A DNA stretch of 64,000 nt. Source: Torpedo marmorata. Lineage: Eukaryota. The position numbers and the translations under genes were made by a program. The notes beneath the pieces are model-generated. The model worked only from the letters and a program-made list of their open reading frames with translations. It did no database searches and was not told the DNA's origin. Every line of letters starts with the position of its first letter. Positions within the stretch are counted from its first letter, which is position 1. The stretch is taken from contig OZ360232.1 in assembly GCA_977017645.1 (NCBI GenBank), positions 20,832,001 through 20,896,000 of the forward strand, read 5' to 3'. Of this stretch, positions 1,040-64,000 are shown in pieces.

Positions 1040-1729
1040 ATCCAAGGGGACCAATATCCTGGCACAGAGTTTTTCTAGTCAGGAGGGTTTAAACTAGATT
1101 GGCAGTGGGGTCAGGGCCAGAACAGAAATGAGATGGGGTAAAATAGTGTACTCAAAGAGAGCAAGTTTAGGCAGCAGCACAGCAAAGAAAAAGGAAAGAC
1201 CAAGTGTTTAAACTGTATTTATTTCAATGCAAGAGGTTTAACAGGTAAGGCAGAGTGTGGATTGGCTCAGGAAACTCTGGAGTATTCTAGACCTAACAGA
1301 AACATGGCTGAGTGAAGGGCAAGACAAGCAGCTGAATGTTCTGTGTTACAGACATTATGAGCATGATAGAGGTGCAGATAAGAGAGGAGCAGCTATTGCC
1401 TTTTTGATGAGGGAAGACCTAACAACAGGGAAGCTATGTGGGTAGGACATAGAAACAAGATGGGAATGATTATTTTAAGGGACTGTAATGTAGGTGCCAC
1501 AGTAGTCAATGGGAATTGGAGAAGCAGATATGCAGGGAGGTCACAGATGACTGAAAGAACAATAAGGTAGTATTACTGGGAGATTTTAAGTTCCATAATG
1601 TTAATTATGCAAAGAGCTCGGGCAGGGTATTATTTGTTCAAGAAAATCTGCTAAATCAAAACATTAAGGGCCCTACCAGAGAGGGGGCAACACTGGACCT
1701 CCTCTTTGGGTACAAGTAGAGCAAGTTAT
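1040..1729 (+). mobile_element. Old CR1 LINE, first segment (ORF1 end, endonuclease start); host of the L1 insertions
   Basis: gagggtttaaactagattggcag (ORF1 end), CIYFNARG, LTETWL, GDF and LDL motifs with many stops. Resumes at 9468. Confidence 0.8.
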
Positions 1730-3396
1730 AATTGTATTAAAATGAATATCTTTCCAAGAGTTCAATACCTTTTTCAATCTATACCTTTTGGAATTCCTCA
1801 AAAATTTTTTAAAGATTTAAAAATCATTGTTAGAAAATTTTTATGGAAAGGAAAATTAGCAAGGGTAAGTATGGATAAATTAACTTGGGAATATGAGATG
1901 GGTGGATTACAACTCCCTAATTTTCAATATTATTATAAGGCAGCACAATTAAAGTTTATTAATGATTTTTTTGATTTAACTAAATCTACTGCTTGGATTA
2001 ATATAGAATTGAATAATATAGGGGAAAGATATAAGGAAGATATTATTTATAAATGGAATTCTAAATTATTATTAGTTAAAAAGAAAAAATCACCGATTAT
2101 TAAACATTTACTGGAAATCTGGACTCAATTAGACAATGAGATAGGACGAAAAGGGTCATTATCTTTGAATATGCCATTGTATCAGAATTTATTGTTACCT
2201 TTTTCTATTGATAATCAATTTTTAAAATTATGGTTTCAAAAAGGAATTAAGAAGATTAAAGATTGTTTTGAGGCTGGAAGATTTGTTACATTTTCTAGGT
2301 TGAAAGAAAAATTTGGAATAATGGATAATACGATTTTGGCTTATTATCAGGTTAAAGGATTTTTAGTTGAGAAATTGGGGAATCAATTAATAACTCCTAG
2401 ACAGGATGGATTAGAATTATTAATTACTAATGGAAATGTTAACAAGTTTATATCACAAATGTATAGATTACTTCAGAGAAAGATGCTTAAGGTAGGATTG
2501 CATAAATCAAGATTAAATTGGGAATCAGATTTAAATATTAATATAGATGAAAAACATTGGAAAGAATTATGTAAATTGAGTATGACCAAAATTATTAATG
2601 TTAGATATAGATTAGTACAATATAATTTTTTTCATCAATTATATTTAACACCTAAAAAATTAAAGAAATTTAATCCGGCACTATCAGATATGTGTTTTAG
2701 ATGTAGGGATGAAATAGGTTCTTTTGTACACTGTACATGGTCATGTTTAAAAATTCAAAATTTTTGGTCTAAAGTTAAGGATTTTTTGGATAGAATTTTT
2801 AATATTACGGTTCCAATGGACCCTATGTTATTTTTATTTGGAGATATTAAAAAATTTAGTATTAGAAATAGATTGAATATGTATCAAATAGAATTTTTAC
2901 GAATTGTTTTAGCGGTTTCAAAAAAATGTATCGCTATTACTTGGAAATCAGATTTAGATTTGAGTTTAGATAGATTACATGCAGAATTACGTTCTTTTAT
3001 ACTATTGGAAAAAATTATATATAATTTACGTGATAAATATCATTTCTTTTTGAAAATTTGGAGCCCATATATCAGAATTATGGGTATGAATTAATTCTCT
3101 AGAAGTTGGTACCGCTGGCAAAAATAACCTCCAATATATAAATAGAATTAGCTTGTAATTTGTTTTCTCCTCACTTTAACTCTTTAATTCTTTATTATTC
3201 AACTCTTTTCTTTTCTTTATAACTAACATTCTTTTTTTTTCCTCTTTTACAATAGTGCTGGGGGGGTTGGGGAGGGAAGGGTGGGAGGGGGGGAGGTAAT
3301 ATATCACATGTATTTTAAATGATATACTATTTTTGATTCATGTATTTTGTGATTTTAAAATGTAAATAAAATTATAAAAAATAAAAAATAAAAAAA
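1730..3396 (+). mobile_element. 5'-truncated L1 (subfamily B): ORF2 C-terminus, 3' UTR, poly(A)
   Basis: Open frame to 3094 with GGLQLPNFQYYYKAAQ and the Cys knuckle CFRC..HCTWSC. G-rich tract near 3258-3296, AATAAA plus A tail, TSD agtagagcaagttat at 1715-1729 and 3397-3411. Confidence 0.95.
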
Positions 3397-3706
3397 AGTA
3401 GAGCAAGTTATTTTTTTAAAATATTTTATTTAAAATTTTTAAATCACAAAATACATAAAATAAAATATGAAATTATCAAAATATTTGTGATACATTTTCA
3501 CTCCCCCTCCTACCCTCCCCTCCCCAACCTTCCCAACCCCACTAATCTAATAAAAATAAAAATATAAAATAAAAATAGAAAAAGAAGAAAAAAAAAGAAG
3601 AAAGAAAAAGATAAAGAGAATGCCAAACTAAAAAAAAAGCATACATCTATAAACTAATTCTATTATGGAGGTCAGGTATGCCAGTAGATCCGATACCCAG
3701 AGATCT

Positions 3707-6700
3707 TCAAATCCTTAAACCAACAACTTTCATATATGGGCTCCAAATTTTTAAGAAAAAATGATATTTGTTACGTAAATTATAAGTAATTTTTTCAAGT
3801 GGTCTACACGAACGAAGTTCTGCATGCCATCTTTCTAATTCTAAATCTAAATCAGATTTCCAAGTAATAGCAATACATTTCTTTGAAACAGCTAAAGCAA
3901 TTCGCAAAAATTATATTTGATACATGTTTAATTTCATCTTAATACTAAATTTTCTAATATCTCCAAACAAAAATATCATAGGATCCATTGGAAATATAAT
4001 CTTAAATACTTTATCTAAAAAAATTTTAAACTTTCAACCAAAAATCATAAACTTTTGGACAAAACCAAGTAGAATGTACAAAAGAACCTTCCTCTTTATT
4101 ACATCTAAAACATAAACCTGATAATGTCGGATTAAATTTCTTTAGTTTTTTAGGTGTTAAATATAATTGATGAAAAAAATTGTATTGTACTAATCTATAT
4201 CTAACATTAATAATCTTCGTCATACTTAATTTACATAATTCTTTCCAATGATTTTCATCTATTATTACATTCAAATCTAATTCCCATTTTAATCTTGATT
4301 TATGAATTCCTACTTTAGGAATTTTCCTCTGAAACAATTTATACATTTGAGAAATAAATTTATTGACATCTCCTTTAGTAACTAATAATTCTAATTCATT
4401 CTGTCTTGGTAAAATCAAAGCATAACCTAATTTCTCAATCAGAAAAGCTCTAATTTGATAATAAGCAAAAAGTGTATTATCTAATATATTAAATTTATCT
4501 TTCATTCTTTGAAAAGTAATAAATTTCCCAGCTTCAAAACAATCATTGATTTTCTTAATTCCTTTTTGAAACCAAATTTTAAATAATTGATTATTAATAG
4601 TAAATGGAATAAGTCCATTTTGATATAAAGGCATCCTTGAAGAAATCAATCCTTTTCCTCATATTTCCTTATCCGTCTTATTCCATATTTCTAACAAATG
4701 TTTAAGAATAGGAGAATTTTTCTTTCTTGTTGATATTAATATAGAATCCCATTTATAAATAACTTCTTCTTTGGAATCTTCTCCTATATTATTTAATTCT
4801 ATTTTACTCCAAGCAGAAGATTTCGTTGAATCAAAAAATTCATTAACAAATTTTAATTGAGCTGCTTTATAATAATTTTGGAAATAAGGAAGTTGTAAAC
4901 CACCCATTTCATAATTCCAAGTTAGTTTTTCCATACCTACTCTTGCTAACTTTCCTTTCGATAAAAATTTTCTAATAATTGAATTTAAATCTTTAAAAAA
5001 TTTTTGAGGAATTTCATAAGCAATTGATTGAAAAAGATATTGAATTCTTGGAAAAACATTGATTTTAATACAATTTACTCTTCCCATTAAAGTTATAGGT
5101 AAATATTTCCAATTTTCTAAATCTTTTTTTATTTTCACAAATAATGGTAAATAATTTAATTTATATAAATTAGCCAATTTTGTGTCAATCTTTATTCTCA
5201 AATATTTAATTCCTTCCTTTGCCCATTTAAATTGTGTAATTTCTTTACATCTACTATAATCCCCTTGTGATAATGCCATAATTTCACTTTTATCAGAATT
5301 AATTTTATATCCAGATATTTCCCCATATTCTCTCAATAACACAGACAATTGTACTAAAGATGTAGTAGATTTTGTCATATATATCAATACATCATCTGCA
5401 AATAAACTAATTTTATGCTATTCCATTCCAACTTTAATACCAACTATTTTAGGATCTTTTCTAACTGATTCTACCAAAGGTTCTATCGCCAAAATAAATA
5501 ATGCTGGTGACAAAGGACATCCTTGTCTAGTAGATCGAGTCAAAGGAAATTTTGAAGAAATTTGTCCATTTGTAACTACTTTAGCAGATGGTTCTTTATA
5601 TATAGTTTTAATCCAATTAATAAATGTACTTCCAAAACCAAATTTCCCCAATACCTTAAATAAAAAATTCCACTCTAATCTATCAAAAGCCTTTTCGGCA
5701 TCTAAAGTTAAAACTAATGGTAAATCTTCCTTCTTTTTATGTAGATTAATTAAACTAATTAATCTAGCTATATTATCTTTTGAATATCTATTTTTAATAA
5801 AACCAGCTTGATCTACATGAATTAAATCTGGTAAATAATTAGCCATTGTATTTGCGAAAATTTTTGCCATTATCTTAAAATCTACATGTAATAATGAAAT
5901 AGGTCTATATGATTCAGTTTTCAATACATCTCTATCTTTTTTTGGTATAACTGTAATTATTGCATTTAAGAAAGTATCTGGTAATGAGCGGGTTTCTGTA
6001 ATTTGATTCAATACATCCATTTATGGAGGTATTAATAAATCTTTAAACTCTTTGTAAATTTCTGATGGAAATCCATCTTCACCTGGAGATTTACCACTCT
6101 TTAAAGAAGTAAGAACTTCATTAACTTCCCACATTGAGAAAGGTAAATCTAAAGATTCTCTACTTTGGGTATTTAATTTAGGTAATATAATTTTAGATAA
6201 AAATCTAGTAATTTTAGAATCATCTTGATCAATCTGAGATTTATATAAATTCAAATAATAATCTTTAAAAGAATCATTTATTTCTCGATGTTTATAAGTT
6301 ATTTCTCTAGAGTTCTTTTTCCTTATAGCATTTATAGTTCTAGAAGTTTGATCTTTTTTTAATTGCCATGCCAAAACTTTATGAGCTCTTTCCCCTAACT
6401 CATAGTATCTTTGTTTAGTTCTTTCAATTAATTTTTCCATTTTATATGTTTGTAATAGATTATAATGTAATTTCTTCCCAATTAAATTGTTCCTTTTTTG
6501 AACTGATCTGTTTTTTTGTAAATCTTTTTCTAAACACTCAATCTCCTTCTCTAAATTTTCTACTTCCCTAAGATAATCTTTCTTAATTTTTGCTGAATAA
6601 CTTATTATTTGACCTCTTAAATAAGCTTTTAAAGCTTCCCAAATAATAAATTTATTATCAGTAGAATTAGAATTTATTTGTAAAATTTCCTGAATTTCCC

Positions 6701-7492
6701 TTATATAATCACAAAAATCTTTTCTTTTTATTAAAGAAGAATTAAATCTCCAGCTATATACTAGTTTTTTCTTTTTCCGGAATTATACAAGATATTAATA
6801 AAGGTGAATGATCAGAAATTATTCTCGCTTTATAAGATGCTTGCGTTATTCTATCTTGAACCTGTGAGGACAATAAAAATAAGTCTATCCTAGAATATGA
6901 ATCATGTCTAAAAGAATAAAAAGAATAATCTTTTTCTCTAGGATTCAATTTCCTCCAAATATCTATTAAATTTAAATCTTTCATCAAAGTAAGAACTCTT
7001 TTAGCAATTTTAGTTTTAGCAAGTGATCTTGAAGTTTTATCCATTATTGGATCTAAACAACAGTTAAAATCTCCCCCAATTAAAATATTCTCATTAGCTT
7101 CTGACAAATGTAAAAAAGAATCTTGAATAAACTGTTCATCATCTGCATTTGGCACATACAAGTTCATAAGTGTCCAGAGTTCTGAATAAATCTGACAATG
7201 TACCAAAACATATCTACCTGCCACATCTATAACTACCGATTGTATCTTAAAAGGTAACTTTTTATTAATTAATATAGCTACCCTTCTTGCTTTAGAATTA
7301 AATGAAGAAGCCACCACTTGACCAACCCATTCTCTTAAACTTTTGATGTTCCGAATCTATCAAATGCATCTCTTGTAAAAAAGCTATATCTACATTCAAC
7401 TTTTTAATATATGCTAAAGTTCTCTTTCTTTTAATCGGATTATTAAGCCCATTTATGTTAATACTTACTACATTTATTTTCTTACTATCCAT
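3707..7492 (-). pseudogene. L1 ORF2 (APE endonuclease + reverse transcriptase + Cys-rich C-terminus), fragmented
   Basis: Consecutive ORF fragments carry SININGLNNPIKR, LQE, GGDFN, SRID, SDHSP, SYRPISLL, LDAEKAFD, RQGCPLSP, FADD (near 5400) and CFRC. Multiple stops and frameshifts. Confidence 0.95.
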
Positions 7493-7774
7493 CGTAACTA
7501 AATTTTATCAAATCTCTTTCAATCAAATCTACCAGCTTTTTCCTCCAAAATTGTAAACTATTTGGCATCTCCTTAAAGAAAATGAGGAAAAATAAAAAAG
7601 AAAAGAAAAAACAAAACCCCGATGAATAAAATACTGGTACAGTTACCCCAGTATTACCCCCCCTCCAGTGCTCGAGAAGTGGCTCTCGCCACTAAAGTGG
7701 TGTATGGCTAGGAAGAAGAGACAAAAAGTCCACCTCCCCCCAACAGATTTTACAAAACATTTTTAATCATAACT

Positions 7775-9344
7775 TCATTTAACTGTTCCAATGTCCACAT
7801 TGTCTTGATCTTCTTCAATCTGGACTTGAATCTTCTCCTCTTTTCGTGAAGTACTTGGCAAAGAAATTTGTAGTGGTGAACTCTCTTGACCTTGTTGATA
7901 AACCATCTCATCTTGATCTTTGATCAAATAAGGAAGAGCTTGTGCATGCCTTAGCGCTTGTTGGGGATCCATAAAAGTAGTAAAATGATTTTCTTCAATT
8001 TGAATTCTCAAAGCCGCAGGGTATCTAAAGGAAAACTTATATCCTTTTTGCCAAAGAAGCGCTTTTGTTGAATTAAATTGTTTCCGACTTTTAACTACCG
8101 TAGAGCTCAAATCTGGATAAAAGAACACTCTATTATCATTAACCATCAGTGGAGATTTTTTCATTCTCGCATTTTGAATGGCTGCTCTTAATATTTTTTC
8201 TCTATCTTGATATCTGAGACATTTAATGAAAACTGGACGTGGTCTTTGATCCATCTGTTGATTTCGTCTCCCAATTCTGTGTGCTCTTTCCAACTCCACT
8301 GGCTTATCCAAAGGCAGAACCTGCAGAAGCCAATCTTGAAAAAATTCAGTTAGATCTTGTTTTTCAAAATTTTCAGGAAGTCCCACTATTTTAATGTTAT
8401 TTCTCCGGCTTTGATTTTCCAATTGATCCAATTTTTGTAGAAGTTGATTTCTTTGTTGTTCCCAACCTGTAAATGAATCTTCTATTTTATCAACTCTTTC
8501 CTTATGATCCACCAATTCATCATAATTATTTTTAACTTCTTCCTCAATTTCTTGAACTTTATGTCTCACTGCACTCACAGTATTTTTCAAAATTTTCATA
8601 TCTTGCTTCACCTCTTTAATTTCTTCTGCCATTGAATTAAATCTAAATTCCATATGAGATTCTAACTGTGCAATGGCCTGAAGTATTTGTTGTTGAGTTG
8701 TTCTTAATGACGAGAATTCTTTAGCTGGGTCCTCAGGGTACTCCTCAAATTCTTCCATCTCTTGTTCCAGGATTTGTTGTATTTCCTTGTCCTTTCCTTC
8801 TGAATCTGACGATGTTTCCTGCTCCACAGTGTATTGCAAAGTCTGTGGAGCGTCTCTTCTTCTGTCAGATTCGTCTGACAGTTCACGTTGTCTTTCGCGC
8901 ATGCGCGGTTGATCCAACATCATTTTTGTAGTTTTCCTTCGAGCGCCGGCGCCATCTTCCCCAGCTCCCTGGGAGAGTAGCGCTGGCGCTACAGTCTCTC
9001 TCAGCACCCTCGATCGTGCCGATTTCGGGGGAAGAAGTACCTGAGTCCCAGGCTCCAACGGACCGGTAGGCCGTTTTTCTTCTTGAAGTAAAGTTTGTTT
9101 GTTTTTTTTGGTTTTTTTTTATTATTTTATTTAAATTTTTAAATCTCAGATTACATAAAATAATTTTGCATATATTTCAAAAAATACATGTGATTTACAT
9201 TTTCTCCCCCCCCTTCCCACCCTCCCCTCCCTAACCCCTATATCCCCCTTACTCTAAAATTAAAATAATATATAGGTCTTGAAGTAAAGTTGATTGTAGC
9301 ATAACTTTCTTTGCTTTTTGTTCTCTCGTTTTTCTAGAGGCCAT
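7775..9344 (-). pseudogene. L1 ORF1 (coiled coil + RRM/CTD, Transposase_22-like), interrupted near its N-terminus
   Basis: ATG at 9344 gives MASRKTREQKAKKVMLQSTLLQ, which joins EEKRPTGPLEPGTQV in frame once the 9096-9291 insertion plus TSD is removed. Motifs LENQSRRNNIKIVGLPE, ERAHR, FYPDLS. Confidence 0.9.
9096..9276 (-). mobile_element. Short L1 3'-end insertion inside L1 ORF1
   Basis: L1-type G-tract, 3' motif and A-rich tail, flanked by the 15-bp TSD tcttgaagtaaagtt at 9081-9095 and 9277-9291. Confidence 0.9.
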
Positions 9345-9576
9345 CTAATAATGACTTTTAATTTATTTTTAAACTGTATAAAGTTATTTATAAAGACTTC
9401 TTAACTAAATCTGTGGGGAGAGGTGTATTCTCATGTCCTCCACCTACGCCATCACGCCACGCCCCCCAGTAGAGCAAGTTATTGATGTAACAAGTGACAG
9501 GGAGCACTTTAAGGCCTGTGACCATTATTCTATTAGTATTCAAATACTTATGGCGAAAGACGGGACTGGTCCACAA

Positions 9577-9821
9577 GGCACGGTTAGTGTAGCAGTTAGC
9601 GCAACGCTGTTACAGCGCCAGCAACCCAGGTTCACATCCGGCACTGTCTGTAAGTAGTTTTTATGTTCTCCCCGTGTCTGCGTGGGTTTCCTTCGGGTGC
9701 TCTGGTTTCCTCCCATCCTTCAAAATGTATGGGGGTTGTAGGGAATTGGGTGCAATTGGGCGGCACGGGCTCGTGGGCCAGAAGGGCCTGTTACCGTGCT
9801 GTGTGTGTAAAAAAAAAAAAA
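9577..9821 (+). mobile_element. tRNA-derived SINE with V-domain-like core (V-SINE/HE1-like)
   Basis: tRNA-like head ggttagtgtagcagttagc..caggttcacatcc, core tgttctccccgtgtctgcgtgggtttcc..gtgctctggtttcctccca, CR1-like tail and A run. Second copy near 44160. Confidence 0.85.
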
Positions 9822-9889
9822 TTAAAGGTCCTAAATTGGGGCAAGGCTGATTTTGGAGTAATTGGAAAGGAACTTGCAGAAATTGAAAA

Positions 9890-10058: not shown

Positions 10059-11911
10059 TTGGGACAGGATGTGTGCAGGTAATTAGATGGCTGGAAAGTG
10101 GGAGCCTTCTAAAAGTGAGATAGTAAGAGTTCAGGCACAACACATTACCGTTAGGGTGAAAGGCAAAGCTGGAAAGTTTAAGGAACCCTGAATGATGAGG
10201 GAGATTGAGGAATTGGTCAGGAAAAAGGAGGCATCCTACAGATTTAAGCAGTGTAGATCAAACAAGTGCCTTGATAAATACAAGTATAGGAGTATGCAAT
10301 AGGGAAATCAGAAGGGCAAAAAGAAGACATGAGGTGGAGATGGCAGGTACGTATAAAGGAAAATCACAAGAGATACTACAGGTACATTAAATGTAAAAGG
10401 ATGGCGAGGGAGAGAATTGGTCCCATTAAAGATCAACATGGTTGTCTTTGTCAGGAGCCACAGGAGATGGGTGAGATTTTCAATGAATATTTCTCTTTGT
10501 ATTGATTATCTCTTTTTAATTTAATATGTACTATTGTCATTTTTTTTAAATTTAGTACCTGTTTGGCTGCAGCAAATAAGAATTACAGTGCATATGAAAC
10601 ATGCAACGTGCATGTCAATAAACTCATTATCATTTAGGCAGTTTCAGATTCCAGTTTTCTGATACCATCTAGTCTTTTCCTTAATTAACTATTAAATCAC
10701 TTCTATTTTTTCTAATAAAATATCAATTTATCTGATTTATTATTTGATATGTAAGATGCAGAAGCTAATTTATGAAACACAGGTACAGTAGGTGAATATG
10801 AAATCATCAGACCCCGTTGTACTGCCACAACCATCTGACACTGACTATAGAAAGGTATCTCCACTGAGAAATTTAGCAGAGCTACAAAAATAACTTGCTA
10901 ACTAAAATTCACAATATCATGTTTCATGCCGACCAAGTTGGCAATCTGGGCTCGTCCCATATACCTGCATTTGGTCCGTATCATAAGTAACAGTGGAAGC
11001 GGTTAGCTTCTTCGTTGCCATTACAAAATTTGAGTCAAAATGTACTTTATTACCATATCTACAATTTTTTAATATAAAAATAAAGCTCTTGTGTACTGAG
11101 AGGGAGCCTTCAGAGAGGATTTCAGTTTTTAAAATTAAATCTTCAATGGAATGATTGGTCAATTTTGAAGGGTTAGTAAAAAGAAGAAAAAAGTAATTAA
11201 TTTTTGCTCAGTTAAACATCCAGACGAGTCCAAAATGCCAACTTGGTCAGCATGGAAAGTAATATTGTGATTTTCACAAGCTACTGTATTGGTACTTAAC
11301 CGTGAGATTCACCATTAATGCATATGAAAGTACCGGTACTTACAAGAGATACACATCCTTAACAATGCAGAAAAGATCAACAGAGTGCTGATGTACTTTG
11401 GTATAAATGAATAATTAATGGTCTTAATTATTACTGAACCATCTCTTGGCTGTTGATAAATTACTTTTCATGTGTGCAGAATTTCATTCCTTGAGATTTT
11501 AATTACTGTTAGAGGTATATAAAATATTACTGTGAGAGGTATATAAAATATTCTTTTATGAATTTTATGTCTCTCTTACATTTCTCACCCACTTTCCCCT
11601 CCATTTATTTCACCTTTTCTACATGTTTAGATATTAAGTTAAATACTTGGATTTCCCAGTTTAGATGAATAATTCAGCAAAGGTTCTTTGTCTAACTAGT
11701 TTTAGAACACAGTAATTCCATACTGCTTACACACAGAGGACTCTAGAACTCAGTGAAATGGGTTTTTAATTAATGTACTGTCAACTGGCATATAAAAGCC
11801 CTATAAAGTAAGTGAACAGCTGTTAGCAGAATGAATAGCAAACACCTTTCATTTGCCATTGTCTGCAAAATTTAAGTCATTATTTTTAATGTAAGTGAAG
11901 GACTCATTTAA

Positions 11912-44159: not shown

Positions 44160-45005
44160 CAACATGGTTAGCGCAGCAGTTGGTGTGATGCTATTACAGC
44201 GCCAGTGAATATGGTTGGAATCTAGCACTGTCTGTAAGGAGTTTGCATGTTCTCCCTGTGTCTGCGTGGGTTTTCTCTGAGTGCTCCGGTTTCCTCCCAC
44301 CCTCCAAAACTTACAGGGTAGTAGGTTAATTTGGGTGTAATTGGGCAGCATGGGTTTAAATACCGTATACTCGTGTAATTGTCGATACTGTGTAATAATC
44401 AACCTTCCTTTTTTGTCCCAAAAATAGGGTGTTTTCGTATGACCCGTACAAAAGTTGACCCCCTTATTTTTGGCCCCGACCGCCTGCCCATCCAAGCTCC
44501 CAACGCCCCGACGCGGACCCTTGCCCCGGCCGCCTGCCCATCTGAACTCCCGATGCCCCAGCCACCCACCCATCCGAGCTCCCGACACCCTGACCGCAGA
44601 TCCTCGCCCTGGCCGCCTACCCATCCGAGATCCCAACGCCCTGACCGCCTGCCCACCAGAGCTCCCAACGCCTCGGCCGCGGATCCTCGCCCTGGCTGTC
44701 TGTCTGCCCATCCAAACTCCCGACGCCCTGGCCACCCACCCATCTGAGATCCCAACCGCAGATCCTCACCCCGGCCGCCCGCTCATCTGAACTCCCGACA
44801 TCCTGGCCGTACCCCGGTCGCCCGCCAATCCGAGCTCCCGACGTCCCGACCGCGGACTTACCACCCGGTCTCGGCCATCCAAGCTCCCGACGCCTTGAAC
44901 GATGCAGATACTTATCGAGGTCAAATGTGGTCCAAAAAATTAGACGATTACACGAGTATATATAATGTAGCTGCAATCAGCTTCTTCCATGCTGTAAATA
45001 AAATT
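44160..45005 (+). mobile_element. V-SINE-like SINE interrupted by a MITE
   Basis: 44160-44360 is colinear with the SINE at 9577; a probable tail remnant resumes after about 44964. Confidence 0.75.
44363..44963. mobile_element. Non-autonomous Tc2/pogo-like DNA transposon with an internal GC-rich minisatellite
   Basis: ta|ccgtatactcgtgtaat ... attacacgagtata (14-nt exact inverted match). Interior has imperfect units ccgcctgcccatccgagctcccgacgccc at about 44475-44895. Confidence 0.75.
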
Positions 45006-62948: not shown

Positions 62949-63358
62949 TTTTTTTTAAAATATTTTATTTAAAATTTTTAATCACAAAATACATAAAATA
63001 GAATATAAAATTATCAAATTATTTGTGATACATTTTCTCCCCCCTCCCTCCCTCCCCTCCCCAACCCCCCCCCCCCCCCGCACCCCCACTAATCTAGTAA
63101 AAATGAAATAAAAAGTAAAAATAGAAAAAAAAGAAAGAAAAAGATAGAGTAAGGGGAATGCCATCTATAAACTAATTCTATTATGGAGGTCAAGTGTGCC
63201 AGTAGATCCGATATCCAGAGATCTTCAAATCCTTAAACCAACAGCTTTCATATATGGGCTCCAAATTTTTAAGAAAAAATGATAATTATTACGTAAATTA
63301 TAAGTAATTTTTTCAAGTGGTATACACAAACAAAGTTCTGCATGCCATCTTTCTAATC
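62949..63358 (-). mobile_element. L1 3' end (subfamily A)
   Basis: Highly similar to 3412-3840; cut off by the next L1. Confidence 0.92.
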
Positions 63359-64000
63359 TTTTTTATTTTTTTTTTTATTTTATTTAAATTTTAAAATCAC
63401 AAAATACATAGATCAAAAATAATATATCATTCCAAATACATGTGATATATTTCCTCCCTCCCTCCCACCCTCCCCTCCCCAACCCCCCCCTACCACTATT
63501 CTAAAGAAAAAAAAAGAATAAAAAGAAAAAAGTTGAATAATAAAGAATTAAAGTGAGGAGAAAACAAACTACAAAGTAATTCTATTTATATATTGGAGGT
63601 TGATTTCGCCAGCGGAGCCGACTTCCAGAGAATTAATTCATACCCATAGCTCTCATATATGGGCTCCAAGTTTTCAAAAAGAAATGATATTTATTACGTA
63701 AATTGTACGTAATCTTTTCTAATGGTATACATGAACGTAATTCTGCATGCAATCTATCTAAATTCAAATCTAAATCTGATTTCCAAGTAATAGCAATACA
63801 TTTTTTTGAAACCGCTAAAACAATTCGTAAAAATTCTATTTGATACATATTTAATCTATTTCTAATACTAAATTTTTTAATATCTCCAAATAAAAATAAC
63901 ATAGGATCCATTGGAAATATAATATTAAAAATTCTATCTAAAAATTTTTAACTTTAGACCAAAAGTCCTTAATTTTAGGACATAACCATGTTGAATGAAC
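63359..64000 (-). mobile_element. L1 3' portion (subfamily B), runs off the window end
   Basis: ORF 63633-63911 is nearly identical to the C-terminus of 1706-3094; same 3' UTR. Confidence 0.93.

What the first reader, a model, noticed from the sequence alone, without database searches (positions are those of the whole stretch)
1715..9482. One 15-bp target site present three times: two L1s inserted tail-to-tail at the same staggered cut
Seen: agtagagcaagttat occurs at 1715-1729, 3397-3411 and 9468-9482. The arrangement is TSD-L1B(+)polyA-TSD-polyT L1A(-)-TSD inside an old CR1. Each element duplicated essentially the same 15 bp from the opposite strand. Known: in TPRT the first nick sets the poly(A) junction and the second-strand cut sets the other TSD end. 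Inference: the first-nick position of one event equals the second-strand cut of the other, suggesting both cuts are endonuclease-preferred sites. Alternatively, two independent allelic insertions recombined within the TSD. Twin priming would give only two TSD copies.
Basis: partly seen in the sequence, partly recalled or inferred. Interest (0 to 1): 0.7.

Follow-up and report, generated by a model that had tools for sequence, protein, structure and literature searches.

The report
Two L1s sharing one target site
Two different LINE-1 jumping genes sit back to back with the same 15 bases repeated three times around them, likely because the second landed by chance about 17 bases from the first and these elements almost always copy 14-17 bases of their landing site; this is an ordinary outcome, and similar overlapping triples occur elsewhere in the same genome.

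Summary
Observation confirmed. The 15-mer is exact at 1715, 3397 and 9468 and occurs only 6 times in the 6.2-Gb genome. It frames a 5'-truncated L1 (+) and a full-length L1 (-), 78.5% alike, inside an older CR1-like repeat. The inference that both cuts are endonuclease-preferred is not supported. In 71 insertions from a general sample, the poly(A)-side nick is TT/purine in 49, the other end in 3 (background 4.2%), and the duplication is 14-17 bp in 57. Tail-to-tail pairs are no commoner at short spacing than at 300 bp (48, 32, 44 per 31-bp bin). Of 38 pairs examined, 11 show three copies of target DNA; one is exact, one near-exact, nine offset; 24 stayed unresolved. About 1-2 near-exact triples are expected by chance. 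Best reading: two sequential insertions whose first nicks lay 17 bp apart on opposite strands, with a fixed-distance second cut. The middle junction is unchecked in reads. Earlier notes of this scan held no such triple. Ordinary; low interest.

The parts
1040..1713 (+). left part of the older host repeat (CR1-like; label recalled; left edge approximate)
   Evidence: about 70% identity to many genomic copies; continues into the right flank in 8 of 12 homologues
1714..1729 (+). target copy 1 (16 bp; core 1715-1729); 5' duplication of L1B
1730..3395 (+). L1B: 5'-truncated L1, 3' part of ORF2 (open, 454 codons to the stop at 3094), 3' UTR and A-rich tail
   Evidence: nearest fetched copy 97.2%
3396..3412 (+). 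target copy 2 (17-bp union of both duplications), between the poly(A) of L1B and the poly(T) of L1A
3413..9467 (-). L1A: full-length L1, ORF1 frame open, ORF2 in at least five pieces
   Evidence: nearest fetched copy 95.6% over the 3' 1.66 kb
9081..9291 (-). L1C: 181-bp L1 3' end (9096-9276) nested in the 5' region of L1A, with its own 15-bp duplication at 9081-9095 and 9277-9291 and a TT/G nick
9468..9483 (+). target copy 3 (16 bp; core 9468-9482); 5' duplication of L1A
9484..9570 (+). right part of the older host repeat, resuming after the target (later interrupted by other repeats)

Best explanation
Two L1 elements of different subfamilies flank and share three copies of one 15-bp target, likely because they inserted one after the other at two endonuclease sites that lay 17 bp apart on opposite strands, each copying about 16 bp by a second cut that is likely set by distance rather than by sequence. 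Shown: the anatomy, the TT/purine context of both poly(A)-side ends, the family's 14-17-bp duplication length and the lack of a motif at the 5'-side end. Inferred: L1A came first (top-strand nick at TTATT/GA), leaving a target copy beside its T-run; L1B later nicked the bottom strand of that copy (CTACTT/GT) and cut the other strand about 16 bp away, next to the T-run, giving the third copy. The reverse order gives the same picture; the order is only likely.
For: General sample: 71 of 106 tails given a duplication by one rule; length 14-17 bp in 57 of 71, median 16; first nick TT/purine 49 of 71; second cut 3 of 71 (95% interval 1-12%) against 4.2% background; no position above 0.14 bits at the second cut against about 1.05 bits at -2 and -1 of the first nick (same result on earlier, hand-filtered subsets of the same loci). 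Tail-to-tail counts per 31-bp bin: 48 at gap 22-52, 32 at 70-100, 44 at 300-330; 26 expected if 72.7 thousand tails per strand were uniform. Among 38 true pairs, 11 have three copies of target DNA; five with nicks 20-26 bp apart still have duplications of 12-17 bp that only partly overlap (L042, L053, L128, L134, L135), and in three with nicks 10-13 bp apart one duplication runs past the other nick site (L022, L026, L052) (read by eye). In L052, L027, L050 and L051, and probably L026, one duplication contains tail DNA of the other element, which shows sequential insertion. Expected near-exact triples (both lengths within 1 bp of the nick spacing) in the 48-pair class: 1.2-1.9; exact 0.2-0.3; seen among 11 resolved: one exact (L123), one near (L047). 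Order: L1A has a broken ORF2, a nested insertion and nearest copy 95.6%; L1B has an open frame and nearest copy 97.2%. Literature: L1-clade duplication peak of 13-15 bp across hosts and a fixed-distance second cut (PMC4245944, passages); no strong consensus at the second cut (PMC12809410, passages).
Against: Only 11 of 38 pairs were resolved at both ends, so a several-fold excess of exact triples is not excluded; L123 is exact at 13 bp, an uncommon length (3 of 71). One of 15 second-cut tests was nominally positive (TT/purine within -3..+1: 22 of 71 against 21.4%, p 0.038) and T is somewhat frequent at +2 (32 of 71). The visible 5'-side end can be shifted from the true cut by trimming or microhomology, which would blur a real motif. 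35 of 106 tails got no call, the sample comes from 3.7 Mb of one contig, and a few calls (such as L069- 2855, L084+, L118-) may be false. The middle junction is not confirmed in reads.
Confidence: 0.8

Rival explanations
1. The endonuclease picks its second cut by sequence, so sites with an endonuclease motif on both strands about 15-17 bp apart are reused from either side and give exact reciprocal duplications.
For: Both ends of the site are TT/purine steps in the window and in L123. A TNTN/AA second-nick motif is stated for human Alu (PMC2836564, passages, citing its ref. 39, not seen). Cryo-EM authors suggest the endonuclease may sample for a suitable top-strand site (PMC7617806, passages). 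One of 15 tests gave p 0.038.
Against: Both ends of any tail-to-tail spacer are first nicks, so TT/purine at both ends is built in. Second cut: TT/purine 3 of 71, TNTN/AA 2 of 71, neither above background. In the window the later element's second cut falls at a T/T step. Nine of 11 resolved triples are offset; no excess of pairs at short spacing.
Confidence: 0.1
2. The assembler merged two haplotypes, each carrying one L1 at this site, through the shared target copy.
For: An exact triple is what such a merge would look like. No read evidence spans the middle junction.
Against: The site is single in the assembly and lies on a contig of more than 100 Mb (places on C44). Ten offset or near-exact triples elsewhere, some with the first element's tail inside the second duplication, show that biology makes such loci. 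A merge would still need two insertions at the same site.
Confidence: 0.05
3. Two allelic insertions arose independently and were joined by a crossover or end-joining event inside the 15-17-bp target copy.
For: It predicts the same sequence as seen here: three copies, the middle one being the union of both duplications.
Against: It needs a crossover in 17 bp of identity between otherwise unlike flanks (inference), on top of the same two insertions. Sequential insertion is directly shown at other loci (L052, L027, L050, L051).
Confidence: 0.04

Closest known systems
Alu/L1 insertions within the target-site duplication of an earlier insertion (Cook et al. 2011, PMC3215922; main-text and supplement passages read)
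   Same: A second L1-machinery insertion lands inside or beside an existing duplication; 38,753 human full-length Alu pairs lie within 20 bp of each other.
   Different: The human cases are mostly direct (inverted:direct about 0.07 at 24 bp or less); here the pair is inverted, tail to tail, between autonomous L1s only 78.5% alike, in a non-mammal. The passages read do not describe an exact reciprocal triple.
Specific-cleavage (fixed-distance) model of L1 second-strand cutting (Yamaguchi et al. 2014, PMC4245944, passages; author name recalled)
   Same: Second cut about 15 bp from the first nick; L1-clade peak of 13-15 bp in several hosts.
   Different: The peak here is 15-16 bp, and the first-nick preference is (C/T)TT/(G/A)A rather than strictly TTTT/AA.
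Tandem Alu insertions at one endonuclease site (El-Sawy and Deininger 2005; recalled, not seen)
   Same: Sequential insertions at one site with repeated duplications.
   Different: Same orientation, reusing the same nick; here opposite strands and two different nicks.
Twin priming and synchronous two-RNA L1 events (twin priming recalled; bioRxiv 10.1101/2024.08.27.596794 seen only as a search listing)
   Same: Inverted L1 sequence at one staggered cut.
   Different: Priming both ends of one break gives two target copies and tails pointing outwards (inference); here three copies, tails pointing inwards, two subfamilies.

Membership tests
L1-clade LINE inserted by target-primed reverse transcription | APE endonuclease followed by RT and a C-terminal zinc-binding region in ORF2 | tested here: met
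   PF14529 (E 8e-8), PF00078 (E 8e-29), PF13966 (E 6e-4, below the curated cut-off) in order along L1A
L1-clade LINE inserted by target-primed reverse transcription | L1-type ORF1 upstream of ORF2 | tested here: inconclusive
   A 447-codon open frame lies upstream; Pfam gave only weak hits below the curated cut-offs; the likeness to L1 ORF1 is recalled
L1-clade LINE inserted by target-primed reverse transcription | A-rich tail, variable 5' truncation, 7-20-bp duplications, T-rich/purine first nick | tested here: met
L1-clade LINE inserted by target-primed reverse transcription | Placement in the L1 clade on an RT tree | not tested
   no tree built
Sequential insertion into an earlier duplication | Two distinct elements, three target copies, each element with its own poly(A)-side nick motif | tested here: met
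   nick contexts match the family profile
Sequential insertion into an earlier duplication | Order shown by intermediate alleles or by tail DNA inside the later duplication | tested here: inconclusive
   Shown at L052, L027, L050, L051; at this locus only age hints
Twin-primed single L1 insertion | Both arms from one RNA, two target copies | tested here: not met
   arms 78.5% alike, each with its own tail, three copies
Sequence-selected second-strand cut | Endonuclease motif at the 5'-side end of duplications | tested here: not met
   3 of 71 against 4.2% background; 14 of 15 tests not significant
Sequence-specific (Tx1-like) element with a fixed target | Insertions share one long target sequence | tested here: not met
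   the 71 targets share only the short nick motif
CR1 clade (host repeat) | CR1-type ORF2 and 3' end | not tested
   continuity of the repeat across the site shown; the clade label is recalled

The most novel reading that the evidence does not exclude
This fish L1 endonuclease fine-tunes its second cut to a nick motif whenever one lies within about 13-17 bp on the opposite strand, so such doubly cleavable sites become reciprocal hot spots; exact triples like this one and L123 would be fossil proof that one enzyme makes both cuts by sequence.
Probability: 0.1. Interest if true: 0.5.

Novelty: new member of a known kind. Interest (0 to 1): 0.2.

Why it matters
How L1 makes its second-strand cut is still open (PMC12809410, PMC7617806, passages). 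Had the triple shown sequence choice at both cuts, it would bear on that. The tests here point the other way: this locus is a chance overlap. What is useful is the by-product: a genome with more than 140,000 L1 tails, where tail-to-tail pairs give two known nick sites at a known distance, offers a natural test of the fixed-distance model outside mammals, and the small sample here supports it.

Tried and rejected
Reads: the best run (X1, assembled contigs, about 2.6% unlike the window in the flank, so probably not the same individual) has a contig on 1399-1727 that ends 4 letters further on; it neither bridges the left junction nor shows an empty site. X2 added nothing. The middle and right junctions were not examined in reads. 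The loose tail-to-tail pattern (135 against 22 for the reversed control) first looked like enrichment, but the next bin gave 136 against 193, and 16 of the first 40 loci fetched were not L1-L1 pairs; the stricter pattern replaced it. Twin priming and a sequence-specific Tx1-like target were rejected. A Pfam label for the host repeat was not obtained (frames full of stops). Paper searches found no description of an exact tail-to-tail triple or of L1 target sites in sharks and rays; the library lacks most subscription papers, and only one supplement was searched. Rows dropped: 7 of 45 automatic calls and 4 of 16 rescued calls were dropped by eye as false; one search used one rule and dropped none afterwards.

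Full report
Observation. The 15-mer is exact at 1715-1729, 3397-3411 and 9468-9482 and occurs six times in the 6.2-Gb own genome; the three other places have unrelated flanks. Between copies 1 and 2 lies a 1.67-kb 5'-truncated L1 on the + strand (L1B) with an open 454-codon end of ORF2. Between copies 2 and 3 lies a 6.06-kb L1 on the - strand (L1A) with ORF1, endonuclease, RT and zinc-binding pieces and the same G-rich 5' end as 8 other fetched copies. The two elements are 78.5% alike over 1,677 columns; their nearest fetched relatives are 97.2% (L1B) and 95.6% (L1A), so they belong to different subfamilies. The flanks are one interrupted older repeat: 8 of 12 homologues that reach the site continue from left-flank-like into right-flank-like sequence. 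CR1 is a recalled label. The organism is likely a cartilaginous fish; this rests on recall and on unchecked notes of this scan.

Junction detail. Copies 1 and 2 share one more A on the left, copies 2 and 3 one more T on the right. Each duplication is therefore up to 16 bp inside a 17-bp site. The poly(A)-side nicks read CTACTT/GT on the bottom strand (L1B) and TTATT/GA on the top strand (L1A). After the first insertion, one flank of the reused copy is a homopolymer. In either order the later element's second cut then falls at a T/T step, not at a T/purine step.

Test 1, both ends of ordinary insertions. I fetched 100 stretches around L1 tails from the first 3.7 Mb of contig C1. One rule gave a duplication for 71 of 106 tails. 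Lengths: 14-17 bp in 57 of 71, median 16. First nick: TT/purine in 49 of 71, profile (C/T)TT/(G/A)A, about 1.05 bits at positions -2 and -1. Second cut: TT/purine in 3 of 71 (background 4.2%), TNTN/AA in 2 of 71 (1.1%, p 0.19), no position above 0.14 bits. Of 15 motif-by-window tests on the second cut one was nominally positive (22 of 71 against 21.4%, p 0.038, widest window), and T is somewhat frequent at +2. Earlier hand-filtered subsets of the same loci (38 and 50 insertions) gave the same picture and are not independent. A few of the 71 calls may be false.

Test 2, how common are tail-to-tail pairs. A strict two-tail pattern gave 48 matches at gap 22-52, 32 at 70-100 and 44 at 300-330. With 72.7 thousand such tails per strand, uniform placement gives 26 per bin. 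Pairs are thus 1.2-1.8 times uniform at every distance, with no peak at short spacing. The short bin includes insertions into the tail itself and a few non-pairs.

Test 3, other triples. I fetched 40 of the 50 places listed of 135 (chosen by eye for tail-like ends), 15 of the 27 further places (those with a mixed-base spacer) and 5 extensions. 38 of the 55 loci have an L1 3' end on both sides. Read by eye, 11 have three copies of target DNA. Nick spacing and the two duplication lengths: L123 13 (13, 13; exact), L047 about 17 (about 17, about 13), L042 20 (17, 16), L134 20 (12, 15), L053 22 (17, 17), L135 23 (16, 16), L128 26 (14, 16), L052 about 12 (15, about 14), L022 about 10 (8 or more, 14), L026 13 (about 78, about 18), L043 20 (8, about 120). 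Three more (L027, L050, L051) are insertions into the T-run/A-run of the first element's tail. 24 stayed unresolved at one or both ends. Duplication length mostly stays at 12-18 bp whatever the spacing, and there is no cluster at 15-17. In L052, L027, L050, L051 and probably L026 the later duplication contains tail DNA of the earlier element, which shows sequential insertion.

Chance. From the length distribution and a pair density of 0.85-1.33 per base of spacing, 1.2-1.9 near-exact and 0.2-0.3 exact triples are expected in this one pattern class. One exact and one near-exact were seen among the 11 resolved; the window's own pair does not match the strict pattern and is a further case. The numbers are small: a several-fold excess is not excluded.

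Reads. The only run with a fair share of the flank (X1) is held as short contigs and differs by about 2.6% in the flank. One contig ends at the left junction without bridging it. The middle junction is unchecked, so a haplotype merge stays possible, at low odds.

Mechanism. Likely course: L1A nicked the top strand, copied its full-length RNA and cut the other strand 16 bp away, leaving one target copy beside its T-run. Later L1B nicked the bottom strand at the other end of that copy and cut 16 bp away, beside the T-run. Three copies result. The order rests on age hints only: broken ORF2, a nested 181-bp L1 tail and greater distance from relatives in L1A. The match of the two duplications needs only two short, common nick motifs 17 bp apart and the family's narrow stagger.

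Comparison with the literature (passages only). Insertion into an earlier duplication is described for Alu: 38,753 full-length pairs within 20 bp, mostly direct (PMC3215922). A fixed-distance second cut, with L1-clade peaks at 13-15 bp, is proposed in PMC4245944. PMC12809410 states that the second cut has no strong consensus. On the other side, PMC2836564 cites a TNTN/AA second-nick motif, and PMC7617806 shows top-strand nicking by the endonuclease in vitro and suggests sampling for a suitable site. Six searches found no paper on an exact tail-to-tail triple; the library is partial.

Verdict. Real structure, ordinary cause (0.8). The bold reading, a sequence-tuned second cut, keeps about 0.1. 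Interest 0.2.

Noticed in passing
window 9081-9291: A 181-bp L1 3' end is nested in the 5' region of L1A in the same orientation, with a perfect 15-bp duplication and a TT/G nick.
   Followed up: yes
window 62951-64000: Two L1 3' ends lie in direct tandem on the - strand; the joint is near 63358 and the outer element runs off the window.
   Followed up: no
L027, L050, L051 (about 4980-5020): Many tails of this L1 family hold a T-run before the A-run, which forms a nick site on the sense strand; later L1s insert there in the opposite direction, giving tail-to-tail pairs with no spacer.
   Followed up: partly
L126 and L134; L043 and L049; L057-L060 (each near 5000): The same few positions inside L1 ORF2 are hit by independent L1 insertions at different loci, suggesting hot spots within L1 itself.
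   Followed up: partly
genome-wide: Closely spaced inverted (tail-to-tail) L1 pairs are not rarer at 22-52 bp than at 300 bp, unlike the strong loss of close inverted Alu pairs reported in humans (PMC3215922); direct pairs were not counted, and these pairs are often 15-25% diverged.
   Followed up: partly
L043 (about 2610-2726 and 7422-7553), L026 (2628-2704): Long duplications of about 120 bp and about 78 bp beside L1 insertions; the second could instead be a third short L1.
   Followed up: partly
L022-L061, L122-L135: 5' inversions of the twin-priming type are frequent in this L1 family (for example L026, L042, L052, L053, L123); not counted.
   Followed up: no
window 9570-9825: A SINE-like repeat with an A-rich end interrupts the host repeat just right of the finding; a second copy lies near 44163-44354. 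The SINE label is recalled.
   Followed up: no
window 10905-10956 and 11223-11274: 52-bp inverted arms, 83% complementary, 266 bp apart; possibly a small non-autonomous DNA transposon.
   Followed up: no
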